64,000 nt of DNA from NCBI GenBank assembly GCA_037379345.1, contig CM074521.1, forward strand, positions 36,418,704-36,482,703, read 5' to 3'. Positions 2,933-62,088 of the stretch are shown here, in pieces (positions within the stretch are counted from its first letter, which is position 1; every line of letters starts with the position of its first letter). A model generated the notes under the pieces. That model was not told the DNA's origin and made no database searches. It saw nothing but the letters and a program-made list of their open reading frames with translations. A program made the translations under genes and the position numbers. This DNA is from Perna viridis (taxonomy: Eukaryota).

Positions 2933-3946
2933 CAGTTTATACTCAACAATGACATCATACTTAGTAAATTCATAGAAATCAGACAGCTCTGCTTTTACAT
3001 GATGCCATCTATTGATATTTGTTAAGGTTGAATTACAAGAGAAAATTTCAGTGGCTCTGCAACATGTCTATAACAAAACAGTTCACAAAACACAGATTTC
3101 TGGTTTTATAAAAAGGAACAGAATTAACATAATTCATCCCATATGCCCTAAGAATCCTTAATTGCTTTTTATCCAACAAAATATCTCAAATTATCTTTTT
3201 TCATATCTATATGAACCATTTTACACTGATGGAGGTAACTGGATCCACTACATCTATCTTTACATATTCATTTCTTCAAGGTTAAAGTGATCAATATAAT
3301 CTAGGTTTACTGGTGTGGAAATACTCAGTGAATGTTCCTCTTGTATAAATGTAATCTTAAGACATCCAATTGATTTTACACCACAAGCTAGTTTTAGTTC
3401 CCAACAGGAAAGAGCTGGAAAGTTACATTAATGATCCTGAGAAAAGACTATAGGACATCTTAAAATGGGTTAAAATATGAAACCCTTAAGTTGAATTAAA
3501 GCTATGATCCCCCCCACCCCCACGAAAAAATTCATGAAAATCCCTTAAGCAGTTCAGTAGGAGCCAGACTTACAAAATATGCAGACCAACAGATGGATCT
3601 ATAGACAGAGTAATTCTCAAGAGGTGGCAAGGTTAAATCAGATCATGATTCTTAAAAGGTGGTAATACAAAATCAGATAAATCGACCATTTATATATCTT
3701 ATAAATTGTATTCTTACATGTAAATATTGTACCTCAACCTTGTCTAACATCATATCCTACAGAACAAGGATGTTTTAAGTATTTGAATGTACTGATGTAT
3801 GAATAGGTTAGAGTGTGTGTGTGTGAAGTAAAGTAGCTGTGTTTGTTTATTGTTATTTATCAAGTTATATCTGTACCTTTATATTTATAGTTTACAAGAA
3901 TATATCTACATACATCTATTGTAATCAACACAAATTCAGTATTTAC

Positions 3947-4085
3947 CTTGATGTCTAAATGAACTATATTTCTCTGATGAAGATAATCTAGTCCCTCCAA
4001 TATCTGTTTCATTATCTTCACTACATCTTGTTCATCAAATGATTCCTCAATAACGCATTCATGGAACAGCTCCCCACCAGAACAG
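3947..4085 (-). CDS. STK17: STK17/DRAK kinase exon 3
   Basis: ttcAG acceptor; CSGGELFHECVIEESFDEQDVVKIMKQILEGLDYLHQRNIVHLDIK; GTAAAT donor; phases consistent. Confidence 0.95.
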
Positions 4086-4500
4086 CTGAAAGAATATATA
4101 CTTTATTTTACCAATATGACAGTAGCCCTCTTTTTCAATTTCCATTACACTTTTTTAGCAAGCTTGGATTGCTACTTTCCATTGGCAAGAGCAGCTAAGA
4201 TTTGAGTTCTATTTCTTAAGGGTTTTCCTTGAGCATATCAATTCCTGGTTGCTCAGAAGGCCCTTTCAACTAGTTCTCATGCCATTTTTTACATCTCATT
4301 ATTAACATTCTTAAAATAAATTCTATTGTCGACATACTTTTTAGATAGTTCATAGCAAAAAAACATGATGAATAACTTCAATGTAAACAGAAAATAGGAG
4401 AACTTTGAAAGATAAGGAGAAGGACCTGGGAACCAAGACATTTTCTTCAGTTGGCTTTTCTCAGCATCCTTTTTCAGAAGTCCTTTAGCCTCTACCCCCC

Positions 4501-9463: not shown

Positions 9464-10159
9464 TTATACAGCCCCACCCACAGCTTTAACAAAAGGCAGG
9501 GGACAAAAATGTCTCACTGAAACTGGTGAAACTCATAGAGGCAACAATTATGAATGTATATACACCTTTTTTATCTTTGACCAAAAGTAAGGTAGTCCTT
9601 ACTATGGAAAAAACAAGGGTGTAAGAACTCCAATTACTAGAGTAGTAAAGATCCTAATTATTGAACTTATGTCTATAACTAGACAAACAAGGGGCATGTT
9701 AGCCATTTTCCTCGGAGTTTTTTTATGTTATCCACTTGTAATCAAACACTCTAGAAGTATGACAAAGTCAATTATTATTACATGAACAAGTGCCCTTTTC
9801 CCGGTCTATTAATGTACAACATCATGTAACATTTCCTCTTGTTTTCAAAGTTCTGTTTTAATATTCAAGTGATAAACTATGTTAAGATTACACAATAAAA
9901 TTTTTCAGAGAAGCATGTTTGATGACAGTCACACAGTATAGATCCCTCACTGCAACAATGAGATAATGGTCGATACATCTTTCCTGTACTTCAGAACTGC
10001 CTTCACACAATCAAAATGTGGCTTTTCACAGAAATGAGGAAAACAAAATATTACTTACATGTACTGGTATTAGCAAAATTTTCACTGTTCACTAAAAAAG
10101 TACACAAGTAAATGGTGATAATTGATATGTACTCATACAAGCCTTTCAGTAAAACTTAC

Positions 10160-10372
10160 TATTCTGTAATGAGGATTAGTTCTGTTGTTGTTTCAAACAC
10201 TTCCTTTAACTGTACAAGTCTAGGATGAGACAGAGCTTTTTCTAACATCACCACCTCCCGTAATATCTCCTCTCGACATGTTTTCCCTCTCCGTCGCTTT
10301 TTTATATATTTTGCTGCTACCTCCTCTTTGGTTTCTTTATGGATTAACTTTTTTACTACAGCAAACTTGCCC
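10160..10372 (-). CDS. STK17: STK17/DRAK kinase exon 2 (subdomains I-V)
   Basis: tttctAG|G GGC AAG TTT... encodes GKFAVVKKLIHKETKEEVAAKYIKKRRRGKTCREEILREVVMLEKALSHPRLVQLKEVFETTTELILITEY, then GTAAGT. The KKRRRG basic loop is typical of DAPK/DRAK kinases. Confidence 0.95.
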
Positions 10373-10446
10373 CTAGAAACAATAAATGGAAATATAGTTA
10401 TTTTGACTGTAACTTTTTGTCTTAAAAGTGAACTAACATATCAAAC

Positions 10447-41724: not shown

Positions 41725-42530
41725 ATGCCTCTAACAAGAAAAAGTAGGCAAAAACGAGATTTTGATGGAACTTATATAAGAAAATGTGGTGCAATTATTC
41801 ATGACCAGGAATCTGTAGATACCAATGTAATATTATACAATTTAAAGAAAAAAAAAAGGAAAAAAAGTAGTTGAAGATTACATGCGTGATAATCAGATAA
41901 TTTCAAAATATACAAGACTAGTATGCAAAAATTGTTATTCTGCAATAGAACAAAAAGTCTTAATGATGGATGCAAAGAAAATCTCGACAGAAACAGTGTC
42001 TAATTCTAATTTGTCTAATTCTCAAAATCTAATATCAGAATGTATAAATGACTTTTGTGAGTCATTGGAGAGCAGAATAAAAGAAGATATTTCATCTTCA
42101 TACACGAATCAATGTACTTACAGCATTCAACAGTTAATGGCTTAAGAACCAGCTGACTGGCTTGCTGACCGACCACAAGGCCTTGTTCAGATGATACATA
42201 AGTTACAAGGATTTTCACAGACCACTGGCACAAATAAGTTCCAGGCATGTCAGATAGCCAGAGCTTAGAAATTCAAAGCTCATCTTACCTCTATCATTCC
42301 AAGAAAATATATTGATATATTCTATGTCTAGAAGTAAGAAACTTGTTACTCATAATTCAAGAACAAATCCTGCTGGTAGTTATGATACTATATCAAGATG
42401 GATATTTGATCAAGCTACAGATGAAATAAAATTACCTAATGGTGTGGTGCGTGGTGTTTTCGAAAATGAACAAGTGAGGCTGACAGTAAAATGCTGCGTG
42501 AAAATAGGTCAAAAAGTGACATAACTAAAC
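41725..42530 (+). pseudogene. Frameshifted transposase-like relic (possibly Academ-like)
   Basis: RLVCKNCY; SKLILPLSFQENILIYSMSRSKKLV...PAGSYDTISRW...LPNGVVRGVFENEQV. The family assignment is tentative. Confidence 0.4.
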
Positions 42531-44800: not shown

Positions 44801-44926
44801 GTGAGTTTTCAGGGAGCTGACATTGTTGTTTTTGATCAATTATGACTGTTTTATGTATATATATATAATGCAGATAAATATTGTCTATTGCCTGTAACTA
44901 TGAACTTTTTCTTTCAGACTTGAACC

Positions 44927-45542
44927 ATGCAACAAACTGGACTATTGATATTAACAAGGCCTCTACCACTTTTGAAGTCAGGTGTACAGACCATTTTGGA
45001 AGAAGCCTCATCAGTTGTTTCAAATACACTATATGTACATATACAGCCATCTATGGGGAATTCCAAAGAATTTGCTTTCAGAAATGTTCCATGTTCAAAA
45101 GACTTTAGATTTTTAATGACTCAGTTTTACTCTACTGGTGCTAAACTGTGTAGCAACCTTGATGTACGAATTCTAATGAATCATGTCACCAATTTATCAA
45201 AACCATGCCAACTTTTTTCATTTAAAATACCTTGTGATATTATTTTGATAGATAATCATGACATGGTAGAGAAGTTTTCACAAAATTACAAATTGATATC
45301 ATCTCTATTCAATCAATACCCTGTAAAACGTCCTCTGGTACAAAATCTGAAAATGAAAGTAGATAGTGAAAGTACAAATTCAGATTATAACGATGATGGG
45401 CAATTAAAATCTTATAACAATGTGGTGTTAGGAGGCACTTTTGATAGAATACACACAGGTCATAAAATCATGCTGGCGGAGGGGTGTTTATTGGCAGAAA
45501 AACAACTGACAGTTGGTGTAACAGAACAGAATATGAATCAGA
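44927..45542 (+). CDS. COASY: Bifunctional coenzyme A synthase, coding exon 1
   Basis: Acceptor ctttcAG at 44917, ATG at 44927. Contains the PPAT motif VVLGGTFDRIHTGHK (HxGH). GTAAAT donor at 45543. Confidence 0.93.
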
Positions 45543-46012
45543 GTAAATTTTTTGTATTTATTAATTGAGAGATATGTGGTTTGAAAGTGACACACTCAAT
45601 GAAAATATAACTCTTTTTAACAAAGCAGTATTTGTTCTTGTGTCCACTCTCTGAAAGTACCAGAGATTACCAGAATTAAACTTTTATTGTGGATAATATT
45701 GATAAATCCAGGGAAGAAGTTAATTTAAAAAAAATAAGTGTTATTTTCATGAATCAGTATCTTATTTTACTTCAATTAATGGCACTGACATGTTCTTAAG
45801 TTATTTAACTATAGAAAAAAAGTAATTCCAATGAATTTAGTCGATTTCTAGTACACCATGGGTTTCTGACAGTGACATACATACATTATAGTCCACCAAG
45901 GTTTTTTGACAGTGACTATGTCATAGCGAATACAGTAAACCATTTACCAGCACTTTTACACTTTATTGTATAAACTTAAAATTAACTTTTTTGTTATGTT
46001 TTTGTCTCTTAG

Positions 46013-46227
46013 GAAAGGCTCTTTGTGAACTTATTACACCCACTCCTGTTAGAATCCAAGGTGTAAAGGAATTTTTAGAGGACGTCAAACCAAACATTGA
46101 ACATCGAGTGGTACCAATCTCTGATATGTATGGTCCAACAATTACTGATTCAGAACTAGAATACATTGTTGTCAGCGAGGAAACAAAGAAAGGAGGCGAT
46201 ATGGTGAATGAGGAAAGGAAAAAGAAG
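46013..46227 (+). CDS. COASY: COASY coding exon 2 (PPAT domain)
   Basis: KALCELITP...DMYGPTITDSELEYIVVSEETKKGGDMVNEERKKK; AG/GT boundaries in phase. Confidence 0.95.
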
Positions 46228-46636
46228 GTATATCACATATCAACAGTATCATAAATTATGAACAATAGAAAATTATGTACTGGTAGGATTTCTCAACAAA
46301 ATTAACTAATGTGGATATTTTGAAACCTATTTTATAAAAATACATGTAATTCCTGAAAATTGATGCTCCTTATTTTATTATAACTGAGAAGCCAACCTGC
46401 ATTCACTTTGTCTGTGCTGTGTGGATTGCTGATAAGCTTCAGTTCTAGTAAACACTGTTGTTAGTGTATTAATTTTTGCAGATTCTAATATTGGTGTCAA
46501 TATTTACTAAATAACTACTGTTTGATAAAATAATTACTTTTTGATAAAATAATTACTGTTTCATAAAATAACTACCGTTTCATAAAATAACTACTGTAAA
46601 AAAAAAGAAAAAAAGAAGAAGTTGATTAGTTGATAA

Positions 46637-47192
46637 TATATAGGGTTACCAACGTCGTGATGTGGTATATAGGGTTACCAACGTGGTGATGTGGTATATA
46701 GGGTTACCAACATCGTGACGCGGTATATAGGGTTACCAACGTCGTGACACGGTATATAGGGTTACCAACGTCGTGGCGAGGTATATTGGGTTACCAACGT
46801 CGTGATGTGGTATTTAGGGTTACCAAGGTCGTGATGTGGTACATAGGGTTGCCAACGTCTTGATGTGGTATTTAGGGTTACCAACGTCTTGATGTTGTAT
46901 TTAGGGTTACCAACATCGTGATGCGTTATTTAGGGTTACCAACATCGTGGGTGGTATATAGGGTTACCAGCATCATGATGTGGTATATAGGGTTACCAAC
47001 ATTGTGATGTGGTATATAGGGTTGCCAGCATCGTGATGTGTTATATAGGGTTGCCAACATTGTGATGCTGTATTTAGGGTTATCAACATTGTGATGTGGT
47101 ATATAGGGTTACCAACATCGAGATGTGGTATATAGGGTTACTAATGTTGTGATGTAATATTTAGGGTTATTAATATGATGCCATGATGTGGT
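46637..47192. repeat. 29-bp minisatellite (~19 copies)
   Basis: TAGGGTTACCAACGTCGTGATGTGGTATA units, ending just upstream of the COASY exon 3 acceptor. Confidence 0.95.
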
Positions 47193-47218
47193 AATTATGT
47201 CCTTCATTTACATGACAG

Positions 47219-47350
47219 GGATTTTCCACATTAGAACAACATGTTATTGAATTGGTAGAAGATGCTTGTCATAATCAGTATGAAGAAGAGAAGATAAGTT
47301 CTTCATCCTTACGGAAGAGGTTACTGGGGACTGTTGTTAATTCTATAAAG
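47219..47350 (+). CDS. COASY: COASY coding exon 3 (PPAT C-terminus and linker)
   Basis: acAG|GFSTLEQHVIELVEDACHNQYEEEKISSSSLRKRLLGTVVNSIK|GTAATG; 132 nt, phase 0 at both ends; KISSS motif. Confidence 0.93.
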
Positions 47351-50300
47351 GTAATGATAACATTGTGAAGTTCTTCATCATTATGGAAGAGGTTACTGGG
47401 AACTGTTGTTATCCTATAAAGGTGATGATAACATTGTGAAGATAAGTTCTTCATCATTACAGAAGAGGTTACTGGGGACTGTTGTTAGTCCTATAAAGGT
47501 AATGATAACAATGTGAAGTTCTTCATCATTACGGAAGAGGTTACTGGGAACTGTTGTTAATCCTATAAAGGTAATGATAACATTGTCAAGATAAGTTCTT
47601 CATCATTACAGAAGAGGTTACTGGGAACTGTTGTAAATTCTATAAAGTTAATGATTACATTGTGAAGATAAGTTCTTCATCATTACTGAAAAGATTACTG
47701 TTAACTGTTGTTAATTCTATGAAGTTAATGATAACATTTTGAAGTTCTTCATCATTACAGAAGAGGTAACTGGGAAGTATTGTCAATCCTATGAAGGTAA
47801 TGATAACATTGTGAAGATAAGTTCTTCGTCATTACTATTCTGTTACCAGGTAACAATTTATTTTTCAATTCTAAACATTTTCTATTTTTAGCAATAATTA
47901 TTTGAGGTCTGTTCGATTTCTATTATGGATGTTTCATTCCCGGATAATAAGTTTCCTCATGTTAACAAACCATGTGAACATAAACAATCAACAATTCGTT
48001 TAATTCTATGATAGCTCACGATCTTTTTATCGCTATCATTGTTGAATAAAGACGTTCTATGAGACAATGTTGGTTATGCTATCTGCACTGCTGCAGAATA
48101 ATTACGGAAGAGGTGACTGGGGACTGTTGTTAATCCTATAAAGGTAATGATAACATTGTGAAGATAAGTTCTTCATCATTACAGAAGAGGTTGCTGGGGG
48201 GTGTTGTTAATCCTATAAAGGTAATGATAACATTGTGAAGTTCTTCATCATTACAGAAGAGGTTACTGGGGACTGTTGTTAATCCTATAAAGGTAATGAT
48301 AACATTGTAAAGATGAGTTCTTCATCATTACAGAAGAGGTTACTGGTGACTGTTGTTAATCCTGTAAAGGTAATGCTAACATTGTGAAGTTCTTCATCAT
48401 TACAGAAGAGGTTACTGGGAACTGTTGTTAATCCTGTAAAGGTAATGATAACATTGTGAAGATAAGTTCTTCATCATTACGGAAGAGGTTACTGGGGACT
48501 GTTGTTAATCCTATAAAGGTAATGATAACATTGTGAAGATAAGTTCTTCATCATTACGGAAGAGGTTGCTGGGGGGTGTTGTTAATCCTATAAAGGTAAT
48601 GATAACATTGTGAAGTTCTTCATCATTACAGAAGAGGTTACTGGGGACTGTTGTTAATTCTATAAAGGTAATGATAACATTGTGAAGTTCTTCATCATTA
48701 CGGAAGAGGTTACTGGGGACTGTTGTTAATCCTATAAAGGTAATGATAACATTGTGAAGATAAGTTCTTCATCATTACGGAAGAGGTGACTGGGGACTGT
48801 TGTTAATCCTATAAAGGTAATGATAACATTGTGAAGATAAGTTCTTCATCATTACAGAAGAGGTTGCTGGGGGGTGTTGTTAATCCTATAAAGGTAATGA
48901 TAACATTGTGAAGTTCTTCATCATTACGGAAGAGGTTACTGGGGACTGTTGTTAATCCTATAAAGGTAATGATAACATTGTAAAGATGAGTTCTTCATCA
49001 TTACAGAAGAGGTTACTGGGGACTGTTGTTAATCCTGTAAAGGTAATGATAACATTGTGAAGTTCTTCATCATTACGGAAGAGGTTACTGGGAACTGTTG
49101 TTAATCCTGTAAAGGTAATGATAACATTGTGAAGATAAGTTCTTCATCATAACAGAAGAGGTTACTGGGGACTGTTGTTAATCCTATAAAGGTAATGATA
49201 ACATTGTGAAGATAAGTTCTTCATCATTACTGAAGAGGTTGCTGGGGGGTGTTGTTAATCCTATAAATGTAATGATAACATTGTGAAGTTCTTCATCATT
49301 ACAGAAGAGGTTACTGGGGACTGTTGTTAATCCTGTAAAGGTAATGCTAACATTGTGAAGTTCTTCATCATTACAGAAGAGGTTACTGGGAACTGTTGTT
49401 AATCCTGTAAAGGTAATGATAACATTGTGAAGATAAGTTCTTCATCATTACGGAAGAGGTTACTGGGGACTGTTGTTAATCCTATAAAGGTAATGATAAC
49501 ATTGTGAAGATAAGTTCTTCATCATTACGGAAGAGGTTGCTGGGGGGTGTTGTTAATCCTATAAAGGTAATGATAACATTGTGAAGTTCTTCATCATTAC
49601 AGAAGAGGTTACTGGGGACTGTTGTTAATTCTATAAAGGTAATGATAACATTGTGAAGTTCTTCATCATTACGGAAGAGGTTACTGGGGACTGTTGTTAA
49701 TCCTATAAAGGTAATGATAACATTGTGAAGATAAGTTCTTCATCATTACGGAAGAGGTTACTGGGGACTGTTGTTAATCCTGTAAAGGTAATGATAACAT
49801 TGTGAAGATGAGTTCTTCATCATTACAGAAGAGGTTACTGGAGACTGTTGTTAATTCTATAAAGGTAATGATAACATTGTGAAGTTCTTCATCATTATGG
49901 AAGAGGTTACTGGGGACTGTTGTTAATTCTATAAAGGTAATGATAACATTGTTAAGTTCTTCATCATTACGGAAGAGGTTACTGGGGACTGTTGTTAATC
50001 CTATAAAGGTAATGATAACATTGTGAAGATAAATTCTTTATCATTACTGAAGAGGTTACTGGGGACTGTTGTTAATCCTGTAAAGGTAATGATAACATTG
50101 TAAAGATGAGTTCTTCATCATTACAGAAGAGGTTACTGGAGACTGTTGTTAATTCTATAAAGGTAATGATAACATTGTGAAGTTCTTCATCATTATGGAA
50201 GAGGTTACTGGAGACTGTTGTTAATTCTATAAAGTTAATGATAACATTGTGAAGTTCTTCATCATTATGGAAGAGGTTACTGGGAACTGTTGTAAATCCT

Positions 50301-50395
50301 ATGAAGGTAATGATTACATTGTGAAGTTCTTCATCATTATGGAAGAGGTTACTGGGAACTGTTGTTATCCTACATAGGTAATGATAACATTGTCA
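47293..50395 (+). repeat. 72/77-bp satellite derived from the COASY exon 3 3' end plus splice donor (~37 copies)
   Basis: Unit GTAATGATAACATTGTGAAG(ATAAG)TTCTTCATCATTACGGAAGAGGTTACTGGGGACTGTTGTTAATCCTATAAAG. The first copy is the real exon end. Confidence 0.97.
47836..48100. mobile_element. 265-bp insertion with 7-bp terminal inverted repeats and 5-bp TSD (solo-LTR-like)
   Basis: ATTAC|TATTCTG...CAGAATA|ATTAC, interrupting one satellite unit; AATAAA at 48045-48050. Confidence 0.8.
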
Positions 50396-50660
50396 ATGGG
50401 GAAAATCTATAATCTACTAGAATTTAGGAAATGCTATAAACTTTGAAGAAATATCTCCTCAAACAATATTTAGTATGTTACTGTCATGGAGAAAATATGT
50501 TTTTTTTTTACTTGTTTTCATTACTGGTGCATTTTAATACACTGCTGGATGAGTTTTACTTTTTTCCCTCTTCATGTTTAACAATTACTGATATAAACAG
50601 ATTGGCCTAAGTATCAGCACTTACAAGTAGTTAGTCATACAATAATGTATAATACAAGTC

Positions 50661-50823
50661 AAACAGTAATCAAGGGAACCAAGATTCTAGCGGAAATCAA
50701 ACGAATGTAATCCAGGGACAAAGACCAGACATGGAAAACAGACATACACAAAAAGAACATAAAATAACCAAAATAATACATACTAAGTAACAAAAGTAAA
50801 TGAGCAACTCTGGACTCCACTAA
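50661..50823 (-). mobile_element. Dispersed repeat, inverted copy of ~57971-58136 (probable retroelement UTR)
   Basis: GTAATCAAGGGAACCAAGATTCTAGCGG...AAATGAGCAACTCTGGACTCCACTAA corresponds to the reverse complement of TTAGTGGAGTCCGGGTTGCTCATTT...GAATCTCGGATCCCTTGATTAC. Confidence 0.8.
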
Positions 50824-51523
50824 GACAAGTTTTATTATAGGAATAAAAGCTGAATGAGTTCATCAGTGTTTGAAATAGACCAACTCACTAATAAACTAAG
50901 TAAAGCCAAAACAGATTCATGGAAAGTTTGTGAGAGAGTTGGAATGAACTCCTACAAAACAGTGTCTATTTGTAAAACATTTAAACTTTGAAGCAGTTAC
51001 TTCATTTGAATATGGTGGCTACTACACCATATTATTCAAAAAAATATATTCCTAATTTTTGAACAGGTTAAATAGAATACCCTGGTGTGGGCTAGTTTAT
51101 ACTTTTTATAATTTAATTTCTAATTAATGACAGTCCAAATATTTAAAATAATTAATTCATAATTGAGACATTATTTTATCTGGGATTATTTGAATTGCAA
51201 TGTGCAGACGAATCAAGGTTTATGCATAATGCTAAGCCAGGTTATACAAGATAACCTGGTGTGCTCAAAGAGAACCAACCAATCAGAAAGCTTGTTACAA
51301 ATCAAATTAAATTATAAATTCATACACAGCAACCATTAATAAAAAATAACAAAAACATTGCCAATCAAAATCTTCGTAATTATCAATACTGGAATTTATA
51401 TGGTGTATACACTCTATGGACTGTTTAAGAGATTTGTCACTTTTCAGTTCTGAAATGCAGGAGTTTTTTTGATCATAAGAGTAGCAGTCTTCAGGTCCTA
51501 CAAACGTGGTTATTGTTTTACAG

Positions 51524-51650
51524 GCTAATGATACAATACCAGCTAGACCATATGTGATAGGACTTACAGGAGGTATAGCCAGTGGGAAGTCAGCACTGTG
51601 TGGTAGGCTTGAGAAACTAGGAGCTGCAGTTGTAGACTGTGATAAATTAG
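51524..51650 (+). CDS. COASY: COASY coding exon 4 (DPCK Walker A)
   Basis: ANDTIPARPYVIGLTGGIASGKSALCGRLEKLGAAVVDCDKL(G); ttacAG acceptor and GTATTA donor. Confidence 0.95.
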
Positions 51651-52864
51651 GTATTACAACCAAAAGTAGTGTTATCTAGTAATGTTTCTTGCCTTAATTT
51701 AATACAAAGTATGAATTGTCACAAATTATAATTTTACATTTTTTCTCTGACATTCCAGAGAACACATGTGTATGATCAACATCTTAAAATAATATGAGGC
51801 AGGTGTAACCTGTAAGAGGACAAATTTATATGAACTGCTTTGCTTTCAAATTAAGAAGATGACGTCATAATTTAAGAAGTGGGTATGTTTTACAGATAAA
51901 TTATTTAGAGTAAACTCTTTATAAAAAGAATAATATAGCAAATAGTTCATTCTACTTCGGATTAAATTGCAATATATGGACCAGTTTGTGGCCCCCAAAA
52001 ATTCAATGGACCCCAGCTACATTTCTGTCCATGTAATTAGGGTGACCAAACAGTCCGTATATTGCCATATGACCATCAACATCAGAACAAATTGCTAAAT
52101 TATTACTTTCAATTTTGATACTGACAATATCCTCAGACCTGTGGGATATCATGATGATTGCTGGAGTTCCACATGATAATGTCATATATAAATCAAAAGT
52201 AACTATTATTCTGTTTTTCCAATTATTGCATTTTTTATCATTTTAATATTAATGGATTTCAATGCATAAAGTTTTGAGGGTCCTTTGTCATGCAAAAAGT
52301 GTGACTACTCACTATTGATTATGGACATCATTTTCATTAAAATAATTGAAGATCTGATGACACAATCACTCACAAAGTTCTGACAGATATTTTTGATGAT
52401 CTTGTCATGTACGAAAGATAGAAAAATACCTGTCAACAAGATCAAAGGAAAAAAGTACTGATTATCAATAAAAATCCTGACTGGGTATTACAGAGTAACT
52501 TCTTGTCAGACTGAAATAAGATTTCAGTGCTTTAAGGTCAGAGGTTAAATATTAATTGATTACCATGAGGAGGACTCAGTCTTCTATTAATCACTGATTT
52601 GATCAGGACATCTTGATTTGGATTTGAAAACACAGAGATCTATTTTATTTCCTACTGGTCCATATGATGTCATATGGATTGTCATGAATTTACCTTAACA
52701 AGTAGAAAATTTAAATTTCAATTAAGTATAATGTAATATAATACAATGTATAATGATTAAGTGAAGAAAAGCAGCATAAATGTGTATTCTTTTGTTATCT
52801 TTGAAAAAAAATATATTTATTACAATTTTCCAGATTTTTTCCATCATTATTTTTTATCTTTCAG

Positions 52865-52992
52865 GCCATGAAGTATATTTAAAAGGAACAGCCTGCTATG
52901 AAAGAATAGTCAAGGAATTTGGGCAAGAAATAGTTAGCAAAAATGGAGAAATTCAGAGACGCTCACTTGGATCTATTGTTTTTAGCAATCCT
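52865..52992 (+). CDS. COASY: COASY coding exon 5
   Basis: HEVYLKGTACYERIVKEFGQEIVSKNGEIQRRSLGSIVFSNP; tttcAG acceptor and GTAAGA donor. Confidence 0.95.
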
Positions 52993-53175
52993 GTAAGATT
53001 TCAAAATTAATTGACTTTGTTTGTTTGAAACACTTTTTGTTCATATGTTTCAGCAATGTTTGAATGACCGAGAGAGAAAAAAAGCCCTTTCGGTTGGTAA
53101 TTACACATTTTATTGTTTAAATCTTTAGGTGTCAGAAAAACTATAATCATTATAATTTATTGTTGTATTTTTAAG

Positions 53176-53257
53176 AATAAACTGAAGTTGTTAAACTCTA
53201 TAGTGTGGCCTGAGATAGCAAGACTTGCTGAAGACAGAATAAAAGAATTTGGAAATG
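53176..53257 (+). CDS. COASY: COASY coding exon 6
   Basis: NKLKLLNSIVWPEIARLAEDRIKEFGN; ttaAG acceptor and GTTTGT donor; phase consistent. Confidence 0.9.
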
Positions 53258-53860
53258 GTTTGTAATTTTGGTAGTATGCAATGGACATACTTACTTTAAC
53301 AGAAATAGCTATGTCATAACTCTACTTTACCATAATGTCATGTACTATGTCATACAGTTGAAACATTAGAAATATATTATCTTGATCTGACACAGCAAAG
53401 TTTTGGGAAAAAATGTATGCTCTTCTACACAGGAAAAATGTAACATTTCTTTAAAAATCAAATGGAAATTTATGATAACAGCTAATAGAAATATGCATTC
53501 TTCGTGTTTTAAAAACACATTCAAAACAGTTTTTTTCCAAATGCAGATGAAAAACATGTTGTTCCCATATCAATTCATATGTTTACTATATTAGTATTTT
53601 ACACATGTATTTCTAGGGTTGATTCTTCATAAATATATCATTAATATGTTTTAAGAAAACAAGTATAACAGAAAATCTTGGCCTGGTGGCAATAAAACTG
53701 AAAACAAATGCTCAAGCCTGAGAACAGTGTTAACTGCCACTTCAATCAAAGTCTTGGTATTTTATTATGTCACAAAATACATTTTAGACTTGAGTAATAA
53801 TAATGAGTTGTGTGTTGCCTGTAACCAGTACCAAATGTAGTGATGTTATCTTATTTATAG

Positions 53861-53961
53861 ATGGTAAGGAGGTAGTTATACTGGAAGCTGCTTTACTAAT
53901 AGATGCTGGCTGGAATAGTCTGGTACATGAGGTTTGGACATCAGTTATTCCTCCTGCAGAG
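53861..53961 (+). CDS. COASY: COASY coding exon 7
   Basis: GKEVVILEAALLIDAGWNSLVHEVWTSVIPPAE; tatAG acceptor and GTAATC donor. Confidence 0.95.
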
Positions 53962-54266
53962 GTAATCCATAAAAGCAGAAACTACAAAAAAATCCATTTG
54001 TAGTCTAGAGAGCCATCTAATAGAAATTATTACTTTTTTCAATAAAAAGAATCCCTACAGAGGAAGACTGGAAGACCAGTCTGGTTGATTTGAATTTTAA
54101 ACAATTTTGTGCTCCTTCAAGATCTATAGAATTATAGTGTTTCATTTAGTTACTTTTCTGAAATAAAGCAGATTAAGAACATGTTTTATACCCTGGTGCC
54201 CCAGAAAATTCCATGTTCTTAAATTCTATAGTTTCTTAAAGCAACAGTTGTTATTCATGGTATATA

Positions 54267-54431
54267 CTGTAAACATATTAACTTTCAAGATGTTTTAATT
54301 TTCACTATTTCCCACGGTGGACATAAAAGTGTGAAATCAGTTTTTAACAATTTATAACTGTAATCATTTTGTAAAACCGTGAAAATTGATACCACGTAAA
54401 TATATTCACTTGAAAATTTATACGTTTACAG
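54267..54431. mobile_element. Tc1/mariner-type MITE in COASY intron 7
   Basis: ~23-bp imperfect TIRs CTGTAAACATATTAACTTTCAAG and CTTGAAAATTTATACGTTTACAG, preceded by TA. Confidence 0.7.
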
Positions 54432-54758
54432 TTGTATATTTACTAATGTTATATATCATATACATTTATCAACATAGCGCCAAACACAATCCACTGAATT
54501 TAGTACAGGTATAGCTATCAAAAACAAGATTTAAAGTAAAATTTTAACTAATATGTAAACTGGTTGCCAACATTCCCTTCTAGTGTGTTCAGACTTATCA
54601 TCATTTTTTGAAAAACTTGTCTGTTTCTAACTTTGTGATACACCAGGTTTATATATATAAAAAAACCTTTTTTAACATTCTTCTTGACTATAATTTCTAG
54701 TGTAATATGACTGTGTTATTGAATACATTGTTCTCATTTATTTTTGTTAATATTGTAG

Positions 54759-54959
54759 GCTGTGAAAAGATTGCAAGAGAGAAACAATTTATCTGAAGAA
54801 GAGGCAAATAAAAGATTAAAGACACAGTTATCTAATAAGGACAGGGTTGACCAATCAAATGTTGTTTTATGTACACTCTGGGAATATGAGTATACACAGA
54901 CTCAGGTGGAGAAAGCTTGGTTGTTATTACAAGAAAGACTGAAAGAAAGAAATGCTTGA
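54759..54959 (+). CDS. COASY: COASY last coding exon
   Basis: [23 protein letters not shown]...[20 protein letters not shown]...A then TGA. The eight exons sum to 1602 nt, i.e. 533 aa plus stop. Confidence 0.95.
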
Positions 54960-55078
54960 TAGTGAAAGTATTAAGCTGAAGGTTACTTGATAGTCAAAGT
55001 ATTAAGGTGAAGGTTACTTGATAGTCAAAGTATTAAGGTGAAGGTTACTTGATAGTGAAAGTATTAAGGTGAAGGTTA
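54955..55078. repeat. 31-bp tandem repeat x4 overlapping the COASY stop codon
   Basis: CTTGATAGT(G/C)AAAGTATTAAG(C/G)TGAAGGTTA. Confidence 0.92.
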
Positions 55079-56639
55079 CAAATACTATATATAGATTTAA
55101 TAGGGTTATCTTTTACTGACAACTCCTCATGTATTTTAACTTTTTTGGTTTTGAGTACTTCTTGTATTTGATTTATTTTTGAATCTTGAACTTTCTGAGT
55201 ATTTGGTTCTAATGTTTCTGATAAGAGGTTATTCCTTGATTCACATGTACGGCATACTGAAATTTGCAATATTTATATGATTGTGTTTTTTTTTGTATTG
55301 AAAAGATCTATAATATTGATAAACTTTTATTGATAACTCTTATTCTTGCAATGTTAACATTATTTTCCTTATTTTCTTGATCACAGGAATCATTGTATTT
55401 CCTGCCCTATTCATTTTATTTCCTGCCCTAGTCATTTCATCTCTTGTTCTAATCTGAAAATTTTTAAAATGGTGCATTTTGTTTCCAATTTTCAACTCCC
55501 CGTATGTTTACTCACATTCCATGTGAAAAATAAAGTTAAAACTAATTTTAAGACCAATTTTGAAGATTTACAACAAGATCTTGTGAGTTTATTTATGCAG
55601 TATACAAACTTATTTTTGTGAGTGATTATTTGGACTGATTTAGCAAGCATGAAGAATCATGAAAATAAATCCCTTCATTGTGAAATACATGTGAAACTGA
55701 GTGTTAGTCACAGAAACAAGTAACGAAATCAGATGGAAAGTAAGTACTTTTGCGACAATAAGGTAATGTGGAATAAACTTGGTTTACAATAATTGTGTGA
55801 TGACTAATTAGAAAAACTCGAAACTTTTACAAAGTAAATTTTTTGTATGTATTGCAATTCATACAAATTACATTGTAAACTTTTTAATATCACTCTTATT
55901 GAATAATCAGGATATTAAATGTATTTTTTAAGTACAAAGACTTGTGTTTCGTTGATCAGTATGTGTCTGTTGTTTCCATATAACTGGTTTATAATAAAAG
56001 TTTTACTGAATTGTAAATCATTATTGAAATTATAATGCCAAAATCTTTGCTTCAAGAATCCATTTATTCATTAGAATTGATAGAAAAAGCTTATTGTTGA
56101 TCTGATTTTTATTATTCAGATGTCAATCTGTTCTTTTTTGAATTTTTTTACATGGTAGGGGTACAAAATTCGGCGTAACCAATAACAACAAAATATTTTA
56201 GCTTTTATGGTTTGTATGTTGGAATTTCTAAGGTTTGGTTTAAATATGTTTCCACATTAAGAGGTCTGTCTGGATATGTCTGAGCCTTCAGCGTTTGTTG
56301 AGACCGCCCGGTTTTATCTTTTATACTTCTTTACTTTTATTTCCAATTACTGAAAAGTGTTAAGTATAAAAATAAGGATGGACGAGTTGTTCGTACTTGT
56401 CAAAGCAAGCACTTTCCTTTCGGCAATTTTCATCACTATGATGTAAGTTTTTTTTTTTAAATCCAAAGAAGCAACGCTTCATAGATTGAAGTGCAAAATG
56501 TACTACCAAGCCTCTTTTCGTAACTAATAATTTCCACACTCACAACTGTCAGATTGTGTCTTCAGTCTTACCACGACACACGTCACTCCCATAGTGGTAT
56601 CATTTCACAGCATGTGGATCCTGGAAAATTTAAAAGATA

Positions 56640-58471: not shown

Positions 58472-60226
58472 CTATATATCACTGATATCAAGGGCATATA
58501 TTTTAGCTCTGTGTCCTTTAGATTCATTGGTCACAGACCCACAACCAACATACAGTATGTCATTCCTATTTATGCTTAAAGAGTACGGAAATTGGATTCC
58601 TAGTGTTCTAGTGTTAATGTAGGAAACGGGATCGCCTTGGTAGTTTAGTATATGAATTGTATGGTTTGTGTTCTCTGATACCAGAAAATTGTCGTCTTTC
58701 GATGTTGTCAAGTCCATGAACACACATTTAAATGGATATTCAAAACCGATACTAGGATGTCCTGTATACACATTGAGAACATTTCCTAATTGATCAAGAA
58801 CTACAACTCTCCCGCTCATATCTGTTGTGTAGATATCTATGACTGCAATATTGTTAAGACTATTTGAAGTAACACGAGCTGGTACAGAAAAAAGTGGCTT
58901 CATATTTTTGTCAATTTCAAACACCTGTCTGATTCTACCTTGCGTATCCATGACAACGATTTGGCGTGGTCCTTTGACTGGCAACATATCCTCTCCTTCA
59001 GCCGTTCCCACTATTATTCGATTGTCATGTGTTACATGGACTGCTAGTGGTATCATAGGAGCAACACAATATTTTGAATCGGTCAGTCTTTTTGGTTTGT
59101 TTGGAGTTATAAGTTTGAGAACAGATGAACCCTTGACTGACAGAAGTAGTTTTCCTGAACCCTGATAAGCCATATCACCAAGATCAGTTCTTACTTCCGA
59201 TTTTATGTGAAGTGATTCGTCCACTACTGTTGCATTCTGAAGTGTATTTTGAGTGTTGTTAACCCATAGAGAATCGTCATATTTTGAGACTAACAGTTTA
59301 ACAATATCCAACTCTGTTTCAATACATTGTACCACTTTAAATGCTTCATCCCTACACATAGGAACATATTCCAGTTTTCCGTAAAACTCAGAAATTAAAC
59401 TTAAGTTACCTGGTTTAAACGAAGAAATGTCAACTTCCTGGTCTCTTGCATAACTGACAGCAGACTTGAGAGTCTTCTCGCAATTATTTAAAATTGATTC
59501 AAAAGCATAGAACACTTTTTCAGTGTCATTAAATTCAACGATTTCGTTTATCGTTTCATGAAGCTTGCAGAAAGCTTTCAGATCACTCTCTAATTTGTTT
59601 CGTTCTTGCATCAGTGTATTCCATGACGCTTCCAGATCATTCGTGACTTCTTGAGATTTTTGTTTGATTGTCTCAATCAGTTTCTTCTCGTGTTTACTTA
59701 GTACATCTTTAATATCATTATACTTTCTCCTTTGCATTGACAGATGTTTTTTAATGTCTTCATTTCTTTTTATAATAAAAGTTACTTTTGATTCCACCAT
59801 TGAGACTGCAACTTTTAATCTGTTCAAGCGAGTAGTATATTCGCTTTCGATATCAACGAAGTCGTGATTCTTGTGATCTCCTGCTACACATTTAGCACAC
59901 ACAAAGCGATTGCATGACTTACAGAAGTGGTAACTGGCTTGTGATGGATGTTCACTACATTTCAGCTTGGTAAGATTAACGCTAATATCAGATGTCGATT
60001 TCCCTAGTTTGTTTCCTTCTGCAGCAATGTTCCTTACTTCTTTGATATTTATAACTGTATGATTTGGTTTTAACTTTGGATGGACAACCTCTTTACAATT
60101 TTTACAGATAAGACTTCCACACTGATTACACTTCCATTCCATCTTTTCGTCCTTTTCACATAACTGACACTTCAATGGAGCTTGTTCCTTGCTAATCTGT
60201 CTTTTAAATGATGAACCTGAACTCAT
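58472..60226 (-). CDS. RING-less TRIM-like protein: two B-boxes, coiled coil, C-terminal NHL/beta-propeller-like region (584 aa, intronless CDS)
   Basis: B-box1 CQLC..CNQC..ICKNC...VH...H; B-box2 CSEH..FCKSC..VCAKC...DHKNH; K/E/L-rich heptads; beta-strand repeats (PLAVHVT, PARVTSN, PYSLSIN). Confidence 0.88.
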   Translation of the reverse strand: MSSGSSFKRQISKEQAPLKCQLCEKDEKMEWKCNQCGSLICKNCKEVVHPKLKPNHTVINIKEVRNIAAEGNKLGKSTSDISVNLTKLKCSEHPSQASYHFCKSCNRFVCAKCVAGDHKNHDFVDIESEYTTRLNRLKVAVSMVESKVTFIIKRNEDIKKHLSMQRRKYNDIKDVLSKHEKKLIETIKQKSQEVTNDLEASWNTLMQERNKLESDLKAFCKLHETINEIVEFNDTEKVFYAFESILNNCEKTLKSAVSYARDQEVDISSFKPGNLSLISEFYGKLEYVPMCRDEAFKVVQCIETELDIVKLLVSKYDDSLWVNNTQNTLQNATVVDESLHIKSEVRTDLGDMAYQGSGKLLLSVKGSSVLKLITPNKPKRLTDSKYCVAPMIPLAVHVTHDNRIIVGTAEGEDMLPVKGPRQIVVMDTQGRIRQVFEIDKNMKPLFSVPARVTSNSLNNIAVIDIYTTDMSGRVVVLDQLGNVLNVYTGHPSIGFEYPFKCVFMDLTTSKDDNFLVSENTNHTIHILNYQGDPVSYINTRTLGIQFPYSLSINRNDILYVGCGSVTNESKGHRAKIYALDISDI

Positions 60227-62088
60227 TTTCTTGCACTTATGTCAACTTCACACAGATAAAACATATGCATCTAAATCATTGTATATTAACCTGCTTTCTA
60301 AAATGCGCATTTAAACAGAGACGCGTTTTTCGATTTTATTCTTCTGAGTCTGAACTTTTATCTATTTGAACATTTCGATTTGGTAACAGAAAAATTATCT
60401 TACCTACTATTTTCGATATTGGCAAGATAACTGATATGTTGTTAGAAAATCAGTGCAAAATTGATTACATTCAACAAATGATAGGTCACATATGATTTAG
60501 TAAGCATATGTCCTAAATTAAATGTTTCAAAATAAAACACAATGAAAGAACTGAGTTGCAATAATTGAATGGTCAGATTAAAAGGCGTCTTCTTCATGCT
60601 CTTCTGGAAACACCTACAGAAGTTCACGGCGTGCAGGAGCAGATCCAAGCGGGCGCGCACTCAGCGCCCCCCACCCCATGGTTACAAATTCTTTTTTTAC
60701 ATGAAATGTTATTTTGTTCACAAATTCTTTTTTATCATAACACTCTGGATCCGACGTTTTTTTTATATCTTCAATAAATATGTGTCGATGTTGTTGAAGG
60801 GTGTGTAGGCGTAAGAGGTTGGAATTCTGTAATCATCCGCCTGTAAAAGGGGTACATTTCTGGTACTGGTAAAATGAGAAACCTAGCTGAAACTTTAAGC
60901 TAACAGATGTCTAAATTCAGTGGAAAAAAAAAACGATTTACGAGCTGTTACCAATTGTTCTGAATGCAATTTTGTATGAAACTGAGAAGATTGTGGCTAG
61001 GTTTTCCAATCGCTAATAAAGAGTGCAGGTAGGCAAAGAAATTTTAAGAAGATATAGCATTTTATTTTTAGACCTTTTTATATGGGTTGGTGTAATGCTC
61101 CTTAAAAAGACAAGTTTTCTTGAAACAAATTATCTATCGAATGTCGTCTAATTTTGAGACGTTTTTGAATAGTAACTCACAAACTGTAAGTATGACCGAG
61201 CATCCTTGATCTCATTAGAAAGCTGAAACATCAAGCTGCATGATTATGCTCAATTTTGATTAAGTTCTTTCCAGGGAATTGCTGTAATAATAAAAACGAA
61301 AAAAATCCACAAACTAGTTTTGCCTTGTATGTATGTGTATATGTATCAAAATGAGGTACAAGATAAGATGGAATATATAGCACAATATATCACCGGACTT
61401 ATTGCTTTGAGCACAGCCTATCAACTAACTACCTAACACATTTCATATGGTAATGCTTATAGGGTCTGAAGGAGACCAACTCTGTCCCCTGAATTTAACT
61501 ATTTATTATTGTAAATATATATATATAATCTCCTGTAAGTTCATGGAAATCTCATGAGTGTGTTTTGCTCATCAACACATTGTAGTAATTCAAAATTATC
61601 ACTTAGGACTGATATTATTGACATTACACATAATTTACTTAGAGAAAACAAGAGATTGTATAAAAAATCAAAGGAATATTTCTCTGTTACTGCATTAACA
61701 TTTCGGGATCCCATTCTTTGTGCTGTGTGAAGGATAAAATTTGGATCACAAACCCTGCACGTGCGCAAGTAGCAGAGATCACTTGTAACGATGCTAGACA
61801 AACCACCGATGGTACTTTCGGTGAAGAAAGTGTTATATGGAAAATTGACAAAAAATGTCTCCCTGTGGAATATTTTACAATCTATAGTTAGAACTCGTTT
61901 TCATCTCAGATTCACTGAACAATATTGTATTAGCTATTGATGACAGTCAGTGTTATTTCTATATTCTATTAAGTAAAGATCAGGGATTATGTTCTCCAAC
62001 ATGTCTAGCGACCATGGGAAATGAGAATTATGGGTCTCTGACACCGGATTTAAGTTAAAGCTTTATGAAATAGAGTTATTCCGCAATA

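What the first reader, a model, noticed from the sequence alone, without database searches (positions are those of the whole stretch)
47351..48100. Possible PPAT-only COASY isoform from read-through plus an insertion-donated poly(A) signal
Seen: skipping the first donor reads AAG GTA ATG ATA ACA TTG TGA. This stops 5 codons later, right after the PPAT domain and before DPCK (326 aa). A sense AATAAA (48045-48050) followed by GT-rich sequence lies in the inserted element ~700 nt downstream. Established: PPAT and DPCK are separate proteins in many lineages. Inference: using any downstream repeat donor gives an NMD target, while intronic polyadenylation would give a monofunctional PPAT.
Basis: inference. 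Interest (0 to 1): 0.7.

Follow-up and report, generated by a model that had tools for sequence, protein, structure and literature searches.

The report
Spliced solo LTR in COASY intron
In this bivalve's CoA-synthase gene the few RNA reads available splice straight past a 38-copy repeat of a splice donor and a retrotransposon end-piece, so the proposed half-enzyme is likely at most a trace product; the odd part is that this end-piece lacks exactly its own intron and so likely came from spliced RNA.

Summary
Read-through of the exon-3 donor (47350) gives 326 aa ending VMITL, between the PPAT and DPCK domains, and AATAAA sits at 48045. Neither is rare: all 7 COASY introns stop within 2-13 codons, and 59% of window positions have an AATAAA within 700 nt. 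The insert (47836-48100) is a sense solo LTR of a BEL/Pao family with a 5-bp target duplication. Its AATAAA is the family's conserved signal, so 'insertion-donated' holds. RNA does not show the isoform: 6 of 7 reads join 47350 to exon 4, the seventh is likely from inside the repeat, and contigs of three samples run unbroken into exon 4. The data are thin (one-sided 95% bound about 39% for other spliced forms), and 3' ends in the insert were not tested. The donor array resembles the human F7 intron-7 minisatellite, where only the first donor is used. Unexpected: this LTR lacks exactly a ~520-bp GTAAGT...TAG intron. One spliced junction was found genome-wide against 23 unspliced donors, so it is likely a reverse-transcribed spliced copy that lost its gene-trap acceptor. 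Verdict: ordinary bifunctional COASY with a modestly interesting spliced LTR.

The parts
44927..45542 (+). COASY coding exon 1 (N-terminal domain and start of PPAT, HxGH motif)
46013..46227 (+). COASY exon 2 (PPAT)
47219..47350 (+). COASY exon 3 (end of PPAT, SSSSLRKR); its donor AAG|GTAATG is the one used
47351..47368 (+). read-through codons VMITL-stop (326-aa product if intron 3 is not spliced)
47291..50393 (+). minisatellite of 38 units (72/77 bp) copying the exon-3 3' end and donor; 35 of 38 keep GT; first unit spans the exon-intron boundary
47836..48100 (+). 265-bp solo LTR of a BEL/Pao family, in sense, flanked by 5-bp duplication ATTAC; lacks the family's ~520-bp LTR intron
48022..48023 (+). 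exact junction left by loss of the GTAAGT...TAG LTR intron; no microhomology; unique in the assembly
48045..48050 (+). AATAAA, 56 nt from LTR end as in family copies; likely the LTR poly(A) signal (use not tested)
47870..47891 (+). acceptor-like site kept in the LTR (12 of 17 pyrimidines, TAG); splicing 47350 to it would give 321 aa + Q-stop; not seen in reads
51524..51650 (+). COASY exon 4 (start of DPCK, P-loop)
52865..52992 (+). COASY exon 5
53176..53257 (+). COASY exon 6
53861..53961 (+). COASY exon 7
54759..54959 (+). COASY exon 8 to stop; full protein 533 aa

Best explanation
This is a bifunctional COASY gene whose sampled transcripts splice from the first donor (47350) to exon 4, so the intron-3 donor array and the solo LTR are likely passengers and any PPAT-only RNA is likely a trace. 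Shown: the 8-exon, 533-aa frame; the 47350-51524 junction in raw reads; the 38-unit array; the LTR identity, sense orientation, target duplication and exact loss of a GT-AG segment. Inferred, donor choice: exon definition pairs the 47219 acceptor with the first donor, as in the F7 intron-7 minisatellite. Inferred, poly(A) silencing: U1 bound at five GT donor copies upstream (nearest 47796, about 250 nt before the AATAAA) would suppress the LTR signal; this mechanism is recalled from vertebrate work and untested in molluscs. Inferred, LTR origin: the LTR came from spliced element RNA, either reverse-transcribed, integrated and reduced to a solo LTR, or written into an existing LTR by cDNA conversion. 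Splicing removed the strong acceptor about 20 nt ahead of the AATAAA, which would otherwise make a sense LTR a gene trap ending COASY after PPAT. That loss may be why the copy is tolerated in an essential gene.
For:: 6 of 7 reads of run X21 end at 47351 with loose letters matching exon 4 (agreement 1.0); depth at 47388-47420 is zero; introns 4-7 are spliced in 4, 12, 7 and 13 reads, and single contigs in X18, X19 and X7 reach exon 4 after 1041-1074 upstream letters (963 coding nt expected). The same data do show intronic contigs for intron 4, so intronic RNA is detectable; the X18 array contig matches units at 48756 or 49727, beyond the LTR signal; no 277-359-aa homologue among 20 short hits; the four read (P0078, P0079, P0081, P0086) all end just past the exon-1 boundary; 15 of 17 parsed copies hold GTAAGT...YAG at exactly the missing segment; chance is about 0.002 for GT..AG and about 1e-5 for sites of this strength; 1 spliced junction against 23 unspliced donors; the F7 precedent (abstract).
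Against: Seven reads, possibly as few as four fragments (4 first and 3 second mates), come from one run. The one-sided 95% bound is 39% for 0 of 6 and 52% for 1 of 7. One read continues to about 47380; I read it as an internal array unit but cannot prove it. Contigs drop rare variants, their upstream letters were not seen, and X18, X19 and X7 are not on record as RNA. No reads were laid on the insert, so 3' ends there and the insert's presence in other animals are untested. The AATAAA has a better GT-rich downstream stretch than the other intronic signals (8 GT/TG). Mouse ERV insertions do cause read-through of donors and intronic termination (PMC3337433, passages). A standalone DPCK gene exists in this genome, so a PPAT-only protein would have a partner.
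Confidence: 0.85

Rival explanations
1. One reading: the first donor and the next four GT copies are skipped, an 850-nt composite last exon ends at the LTR signal, and a 326-aa PPAT-only enzyme is made at a meaningful level, working with the standalone DPCK.
For: Exact domain boundary. Conserved sense LTR signal. Standalone DPCK on the same contig. One sense read runs 30 nt into the intron. ERV-triggered read-through and termination in mouse (passages). Human COASY has a short isoform lacking part of DPCK (PMC9825188, passages).
Against: 6 of 7 reads are spliced and unit 2 has zero depth. The model needs five GT donors ignored. No such protein length among 20 short homologues. An early stop and a nearby AATAAA are both common.
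Confidence: 0.05
2. Alternative last exon: donor 47350 splices to the acceptor-like site at 47891 inside the LTR, giving a ~175-nt last exon, 321 aa + Q-stop, and the LTR poly(A) signal. This route to a PPAT-only protein is simpler than read-through.
For: The site has 12 of 17 pyrimidines, within the 10-14 range of the seven real acceptors, and is kept in 18 of 19 family copies. It lies 154 nt before the AATAAA.
Against: 0 of 6 spliced reads use it; loose ends under 3 reads are not listed, but all 7 reads are accounted for. No function is shown for the site.
Confidence: 0.05
3. The downstream donor copies are used at a notable rate and feed NMD, so the array lowers or tunes COASY output.
For: 35 of 38 copies keep GT, mostly in the same AAG|GTAATG context. 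All would carry the TGA at 47366.
Against: No read or contig shows it, though NMD would hide such RNA. In F7 identical pseudo-donors stay silent (abstract).
Confidence: 0.05
4. The LTR's missing segment is an ordinary DNA deletion that happens to end at GT and AG.
For: Two other copies (L007, L011) carry unrelated deletions in this part of the LTR. No family RNA was examined.
Against: The boundaries are the LTR's only GTRAG site and a long pyrimidine tract with TAG, exact to the base and without microhomology. Chance is about 1e-5 to 2e-3.
Confidence: 0.05

Closest known systems
Metazoan bifunctional CoA synthase (COASY); Mytilus edulis P0002; mouse 2F6R
   Same: N-terminal domain, PPAT and DPCK in one 533-aa chain; 58% identical to P0002 over exon 1; all 77 longer homologues carry both Pfam domains
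   Different: Intron 3 carries a 3.1-kb donor minisatellite and an LTR; whether relatives have them was not testable
Human F7 intron-7 37-bp VNTR (PMC1557585, abstract seen)
   Same: First repeat unit spans the exon-intron boundary; identical pseudo-donors follow; only the first is used
   Different: Here 38 units of 72/77 bp, an in-frame stop in the first intronic unit, and an LTR inside the array
BEL/Pao LTR retrotransposon solo LTR (BEL/Pao in molluscs: PMC6238403, passages)
   Same: Paired ~790-bp LTRs about 7 kb apart, Peptidase_A17 and DUF5641, 5-bp target duplication, AATAAA with GT-rich stretch near the LTR end
   Different: Ends are TG...TA in most copies and TA...TA here; the LTR holds an intron that this copy has lost; clade not determined
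SpIREs, spliced integrated L1 copies (PMC5860796, abstract and passages)
   Same: A genomic retroelement copy that lacks exactly a splice-bounded segment of its control region
   Different: SpIREs are non-LTR L1 copies; this is a solo LTR with both ends and a 5-bp duplication, no poly(A) tail
Introns inside maize LTRs (bioRxiv 10.64898/2026.05.08.723830, passages)
   Same: LTRs containing canonical introns
   Different: Seen there as RNA in a plant; here as an intron-less DNA copy in an animal BEL/Pao family, without RNA evidence
Human COASY-short and gamma isoforms (PMC9825188, passages)
   Same: Domain-partial COASY isoforms exist; COASY-short lacks aa 350-425 of DPCK
   Different: Made by exon skipping, in frame; no intronic-polyadenylation PPAT-only form was found in my one search

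Membership tests
Bifunctional COASY gene | PPAT (CTP_transf_like) and DPCK (CoaE) in one open frame | tested here: met
   533 aa, one stop, GT-AG introns; domains found on exons 1 and 4 and on the orthologue
Bifunctional COASY gene | PPAT exons joined to DPCK exons in RNA | tested here: met
   6 of 7 reads join 47350 to 51524; downstream joints in 4 of 4 runs
Intronic-polyadenylation isoform (PPAT-only) | Sense poly(A) signal with downstream GU-rich element in the intron | tested here: met
Intronic-polyadenylation isoform (PPAT-only) | Reads that run from unique exon-3 sequence into the intron | tested here: inconclusive
   At most 1 of 7 reads, likely from inside the array; zero depth at 47388-47420; too few reads to exclude a minor form
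Intronic-polyadenylation isoform (PPAT-only) | Poly(A) 3' ends 15-35 nt after the AATAAA | not tested
   No reads were laid on the insert
Intronic-polyadenylation isoform (PPAT-only) | Protein ending VMITL, or a same-length form in relatives | tested here: not met
   0 of 20 hits of 112-359 aa were longer than 276 aa; a weak test; proteomics not available
BEL/Pao solo LTR | Matches both terminal repeats of full elements with BEL/Pao domains | tested here: met
   Five elements with direct repeats 95-97% alike; Peptidase_A17 E 4.7e-42 and DUF5641 E 2.4e-21 in 1 of 4 ORFs of L025 scanned
BEL/Pao solo LTR | 4-6-bp target-site duplication | tested here: met
   ATTAC on both sides; 5-bp duplications also at L002, L007, L015, L019
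BEL/Pao solo LTR | TG...CA inverted ends | tested here: inconclusive
   7-bp inverted ends are present, but TG...TA in most copies, TG...CA in L002 and TA...TA here
Spliced integrated retroelement | Deletion bounded exactly by donor and acceptor of the parent family | tested here: met
Spliced integrated retroelement | The same splice shown in element RNA | not tested
   No family RNA was examined
Donor-spanning minisatellite (F7 IVS7 type) | First unit spans the exon-intron boundary; downstream pseudo-donors silent | tested here: met
   (silence rests on 6 reads)

The most novel reading that the evidence does not exclude
A BEL/Pao LTR that was reverse-transcribed after splicing out its own intron sits in sense exactly at the PPAT/DPCK seam of an essential fused enzyme. 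It lost its strong gene-trap acceptor but kept its poly(A) signal and a second acceptor, and in some tissue or stress state it re-splits COASY into a 322- or 326-aa PPAT-only enzyme that works with the genome's standalone DPCK: transposon-driven fission of a fused enzyme at the RNA level.
Probability: 0.08. Interest if true: 0.6.

Novelty: new variant of a known kind. Interest (0 to 1): 0.25.

Why it matters
If the isoform were real it would separate dephospho-CoA synthesis from CoA synthesis and show a transposon undoing a gene fusion; the data do not show this. What stands is smaller. The locus is a natural test of donor choice among 35 near-identical donors, and of poly(A)-signal suppression in a mollusc. 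It is also DNA-level evidence that an animal BEL/Pao LTR contains a real intron and that spliced LTRs get written back into the genome. A 2026 maize preprint calls its LTR introns the first such evidence, and my four searches found no report of an intron-less solo LTR; subscription papers are mostly outside that library.

Tried and rejected
The insert as a short DNA transposon (suggested by its 7-bp inverted ends): rejected, since it matches both LTRs of full elements. The stop codon and the AATAAA as unusual in themselves: rejected by background counts. Intron 3 as newly created by the tandem duplication: unlikely, since the intron has a further 1.1 kb of non-repeat sequence with its own acceptor; intron position in other species was not tested. 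Run search: no RNA holder listed on record; only X21 is recorded as RNA. Earlier-findings look-ups returned nothing. Literature: one search gave 0 papers; searches gave no intron-less solo LTR; one search gave no PPAT-only polyadenylation isoform. In one search exon 8 was out of frame, so its whole-protein identities are underestimates and only the junction alignment is used; the frame was corrected. No structure was predicted, as Pfam boundaries answered the question. No supplements were read; those of the maize preprint are closed and might describe spliced genomic LTR copies.

Full report
GENE. The + strand carries COASY in eight coding exons: 44927-45542, 46013-46227, 47219-47350, 51524-51650, 52865-52992, 53176-53257, 53861-53961 and 54759-54959. 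They give 533 aa with one stop and GT-AG introns throughout (introns 4-7 confirmed by RNA joints). The nearest named homologue is Mytilus edulis COASY, 58% identical over exon 1, and all 77 longer homologues carry both PF01467 and PF01121. In that orthologue PPAT spans 164-308 and DPCK starts at 328 (PDB matches agree). Intron 3 falls between the two.

OBSERVATION. Read-through at 47350 gives 326 aa ending VMITL, and AATAAA lies at 48045. Both are as reported. The stop is unremarkable: the seven donors give 8, 8, 5, 9, 5, 2 and 13 extra residues. The window has one AATAAA per 681 nt, and 751 of 1266 positions have one within 700 nt.

ARRAY. 47291-50393 is a minisatellite of 38 units of 72 or 77 bp, copying the last ~55 nt of exon 3 plus the donor. 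35 of 38 keep GT (34, plus 47421 corrected); five lie upstream of the insert. Middle units are 95% alike, the upstream and terminal ones 88-90%. The window is full of intronic minisatellites (54 TRF rows), so an array is ordinary here. The human F7 intron-7 VNTR has the same anatomy, and there only the most upstream donor is used (PMC1557585, abstract).

INSERT. 47836-48100 has 40 other matches in the genome (40 of 54 candidates scored). Five fetched regions are full elements with direct repeats 95-97% alike and ORFs on the same strand as the insert. One ORF of four scanned carries Peptidase_A17 and DUF5641, so the family is BEL/Pao. The insert has both LTR ends and a 5-bp duplication, and is in sense to COASY. 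Its AATAAA is 55-57 nt from the LTR end in 18 of 18 parsed copies (19 examined), followed by a GT-rich stretch. That is the usual LTR poly(A) layout (PMC3601003, passages; BEL/Pao was not modelled there).

SPLICED LTR. Family LTRs are about 750-795 bp; this one is 265. The missing part begins GTAAGT and ends in a pyrimidine tract plus YAG in 15 of 17 parsed copies (483-530 bp, one 1145 with an insertion). L007 and L011 have other deletions; L006 and L012 were not parsed. The junction is exact and has no microhomology. The donor is the LTR's only GTRAG, and the chance of such ends is 0.002 (any GT..AG) to about 1e-5. Genome-wide, with one mismatch allowed, the spliced junction occurs once and the unspliced donor 23 times; counts are lower bounds. 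The flanks are 92-96% and 91-95% identical to relatives. I infer an intron removed in RNA and written back by reverse transcription, either at insertion followed by LTR-LTR recombination or by cDNA conversion; these cannot be told apart. In an intron-bearing copy the acceptor lies about 20 nt before the AATAAA, and a splice from exon 3 would end COASY with LFTAIIVE-stop. The intact sense LTR would thus be a gene trap, and the spliced copy has lost that acceptor. That this is why it survived is inference; sense ERVs are depleted in mouse introns (PMC3337433, passages). A second acceptor-like site remains at 47891 and would give 321 aa + Q.

RNA. Only run X21 is on record as RNA. On 47172-47420 it laid 7 reads, all in the orientation expected for + strand RNA in a usual stranded library. 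Six leave at 47351 into exon 4 and one runs to about 47380. The depth steps fit a read starting at 47290, where array homology starts, and one array place fits it at 4 mismatches. It is likely intronic array RNA, but a true read-through cannot be excluded. Depth over 47388-47420 is zero. An X18 contig matches array units beyond the LTR; its strand and RNA origin are unknown. X1 and X11 laid nothing. On 50450-54950, introns 4-7 are spliced in 4, 12, 7 and 13 X21 reads. Single contigs of X18, X19 and X7 enter exon 4 after 1041-1074 letters against 963 coding nt; their upstream letters were not shown. Intron 4 shows intronic contigs (depth 6-26 against 34-80 in X7), so intronic RNA is visible in these data. 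Bounds are wide: 39% for 0 of 6, 52% for 1 of 7. No reads were laid on the insert, so 3' ends there remain open.

PROTEINS. Among 20 homologues of 112-359 aa none exceeds 276 aa. The four read end just after the exon-1 boundary, so intron read-through forms are on record, but none for intron 3. A standalone DPCK gene lies on the same contig, which would give a PPAT-only protein a partner. Yeast has separate CAB4 and CAB5 (PMC10054636, passages). Human COASY has a DPCK-only gamma form and a short form lacking aa 350-425 (PMC9825188, passages).

MECHANISM AND RIVALS. Best (0.85): the first donor is used, a full enzyme is made, and the LTR signal is largely silent, likely through U1 on the donor copies (recalled; seen only as a cited title). 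Rivals: read-through plus LTR polyadenylation at a meaningful level (0.05); splicing to 47891 (0.05); downstream donors feeding NMD (0.05). Separately, the LTR deletion being a chance DNA deletion is put at 0.05.

NOVELTY. The proposed isoform is unsupported. The array is a new member of the F7 type. The intron-less solo LTR works like a SpIRE (PMC5860796, abstract and passages) but is an LTR, and it matches LTR introns seen as RNA in maize (preprint, passages). Searches found no report of such a copy; other papers in those listings were seen as titles and abstract starts only (PMC12786077 and PMC6238403 as passages). Interest 0.25.

Noticed in passing
window 51651-52864 (COASY intron 4): Intronic contigs in X7 (51622-52164 depth 6.1; 52371-52892 depth 25.7, against 33-80 spliced), X18 and X19, and low depth in X21, suggest partial retention or slow splicing; read-through gives 372 aa.
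   Followed up: no
window 45543-46012 (COASY intron 1): The 213-aa exon-1 read-through product is on record as a protein (P0078); like forms exist for relatives (P0079, P0081 with 183 members), suggesting intron-1 retention in bivalve assemblies.
   Followed up: partly
window 54955-55079: A 31-bp x4 tandem repeat begins at the COASY stop codon, a second array that starts at a gene landmark.
   Followed up: no
window 46509-46597 and 46637-47169: 19-bp and 29-bp minisatellites fill intron 2; the 29-bp array ends 50 nt before the exon-3 acceptor.
   Followed up: no
window 50665-50810 and about 51205-51355: Dispersed repeats in intron 3; the first draws very high depth from other loci in all four runs.
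   Followed up: no
G000:C11:27353228-27357646 (-), loci L027-L029: Three exons of a standalone dephospho-CoA kinase gene (DCAKD-like; name recalled).
   Followed up: partly
L021-L025: Five full BEL/Pao copies with broken frames; 5' LTRs are followed by GTAAA rather than the usual TGG primer site (usual form recalled), and L025's 3' LTR holds a ~630-bp insertion with inverted ends.
   Followed up: no
window 51524-51537 versus 47351-47364: Exon 4 begins with letters much like the start of intron 3 (GCTAATGATAC versus GTAATGATAAC); likely coincidence.
   Followed up: no
window 44900-44926: An acceptor-like site lies 8 nt before the ATG, and contig lengths imply 80-110 nt of leader, so an upstream non-coding exon is likely.
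   Followed up: no
window 3860-4102 and 10159-10440 (-): Exons of a protein kinase resembling DRAK/STK17 (name recalled, not tested).
   Followed up: no
window 58472-60241 (-) and 41846-42524 (+): A 589-aa single ORF with B-box-like cysteine motifs (TRIM-like; recalled), and two adjacent unexplained ORFs of 99 and 88 aa upstream of COASY.
   Followed up: no
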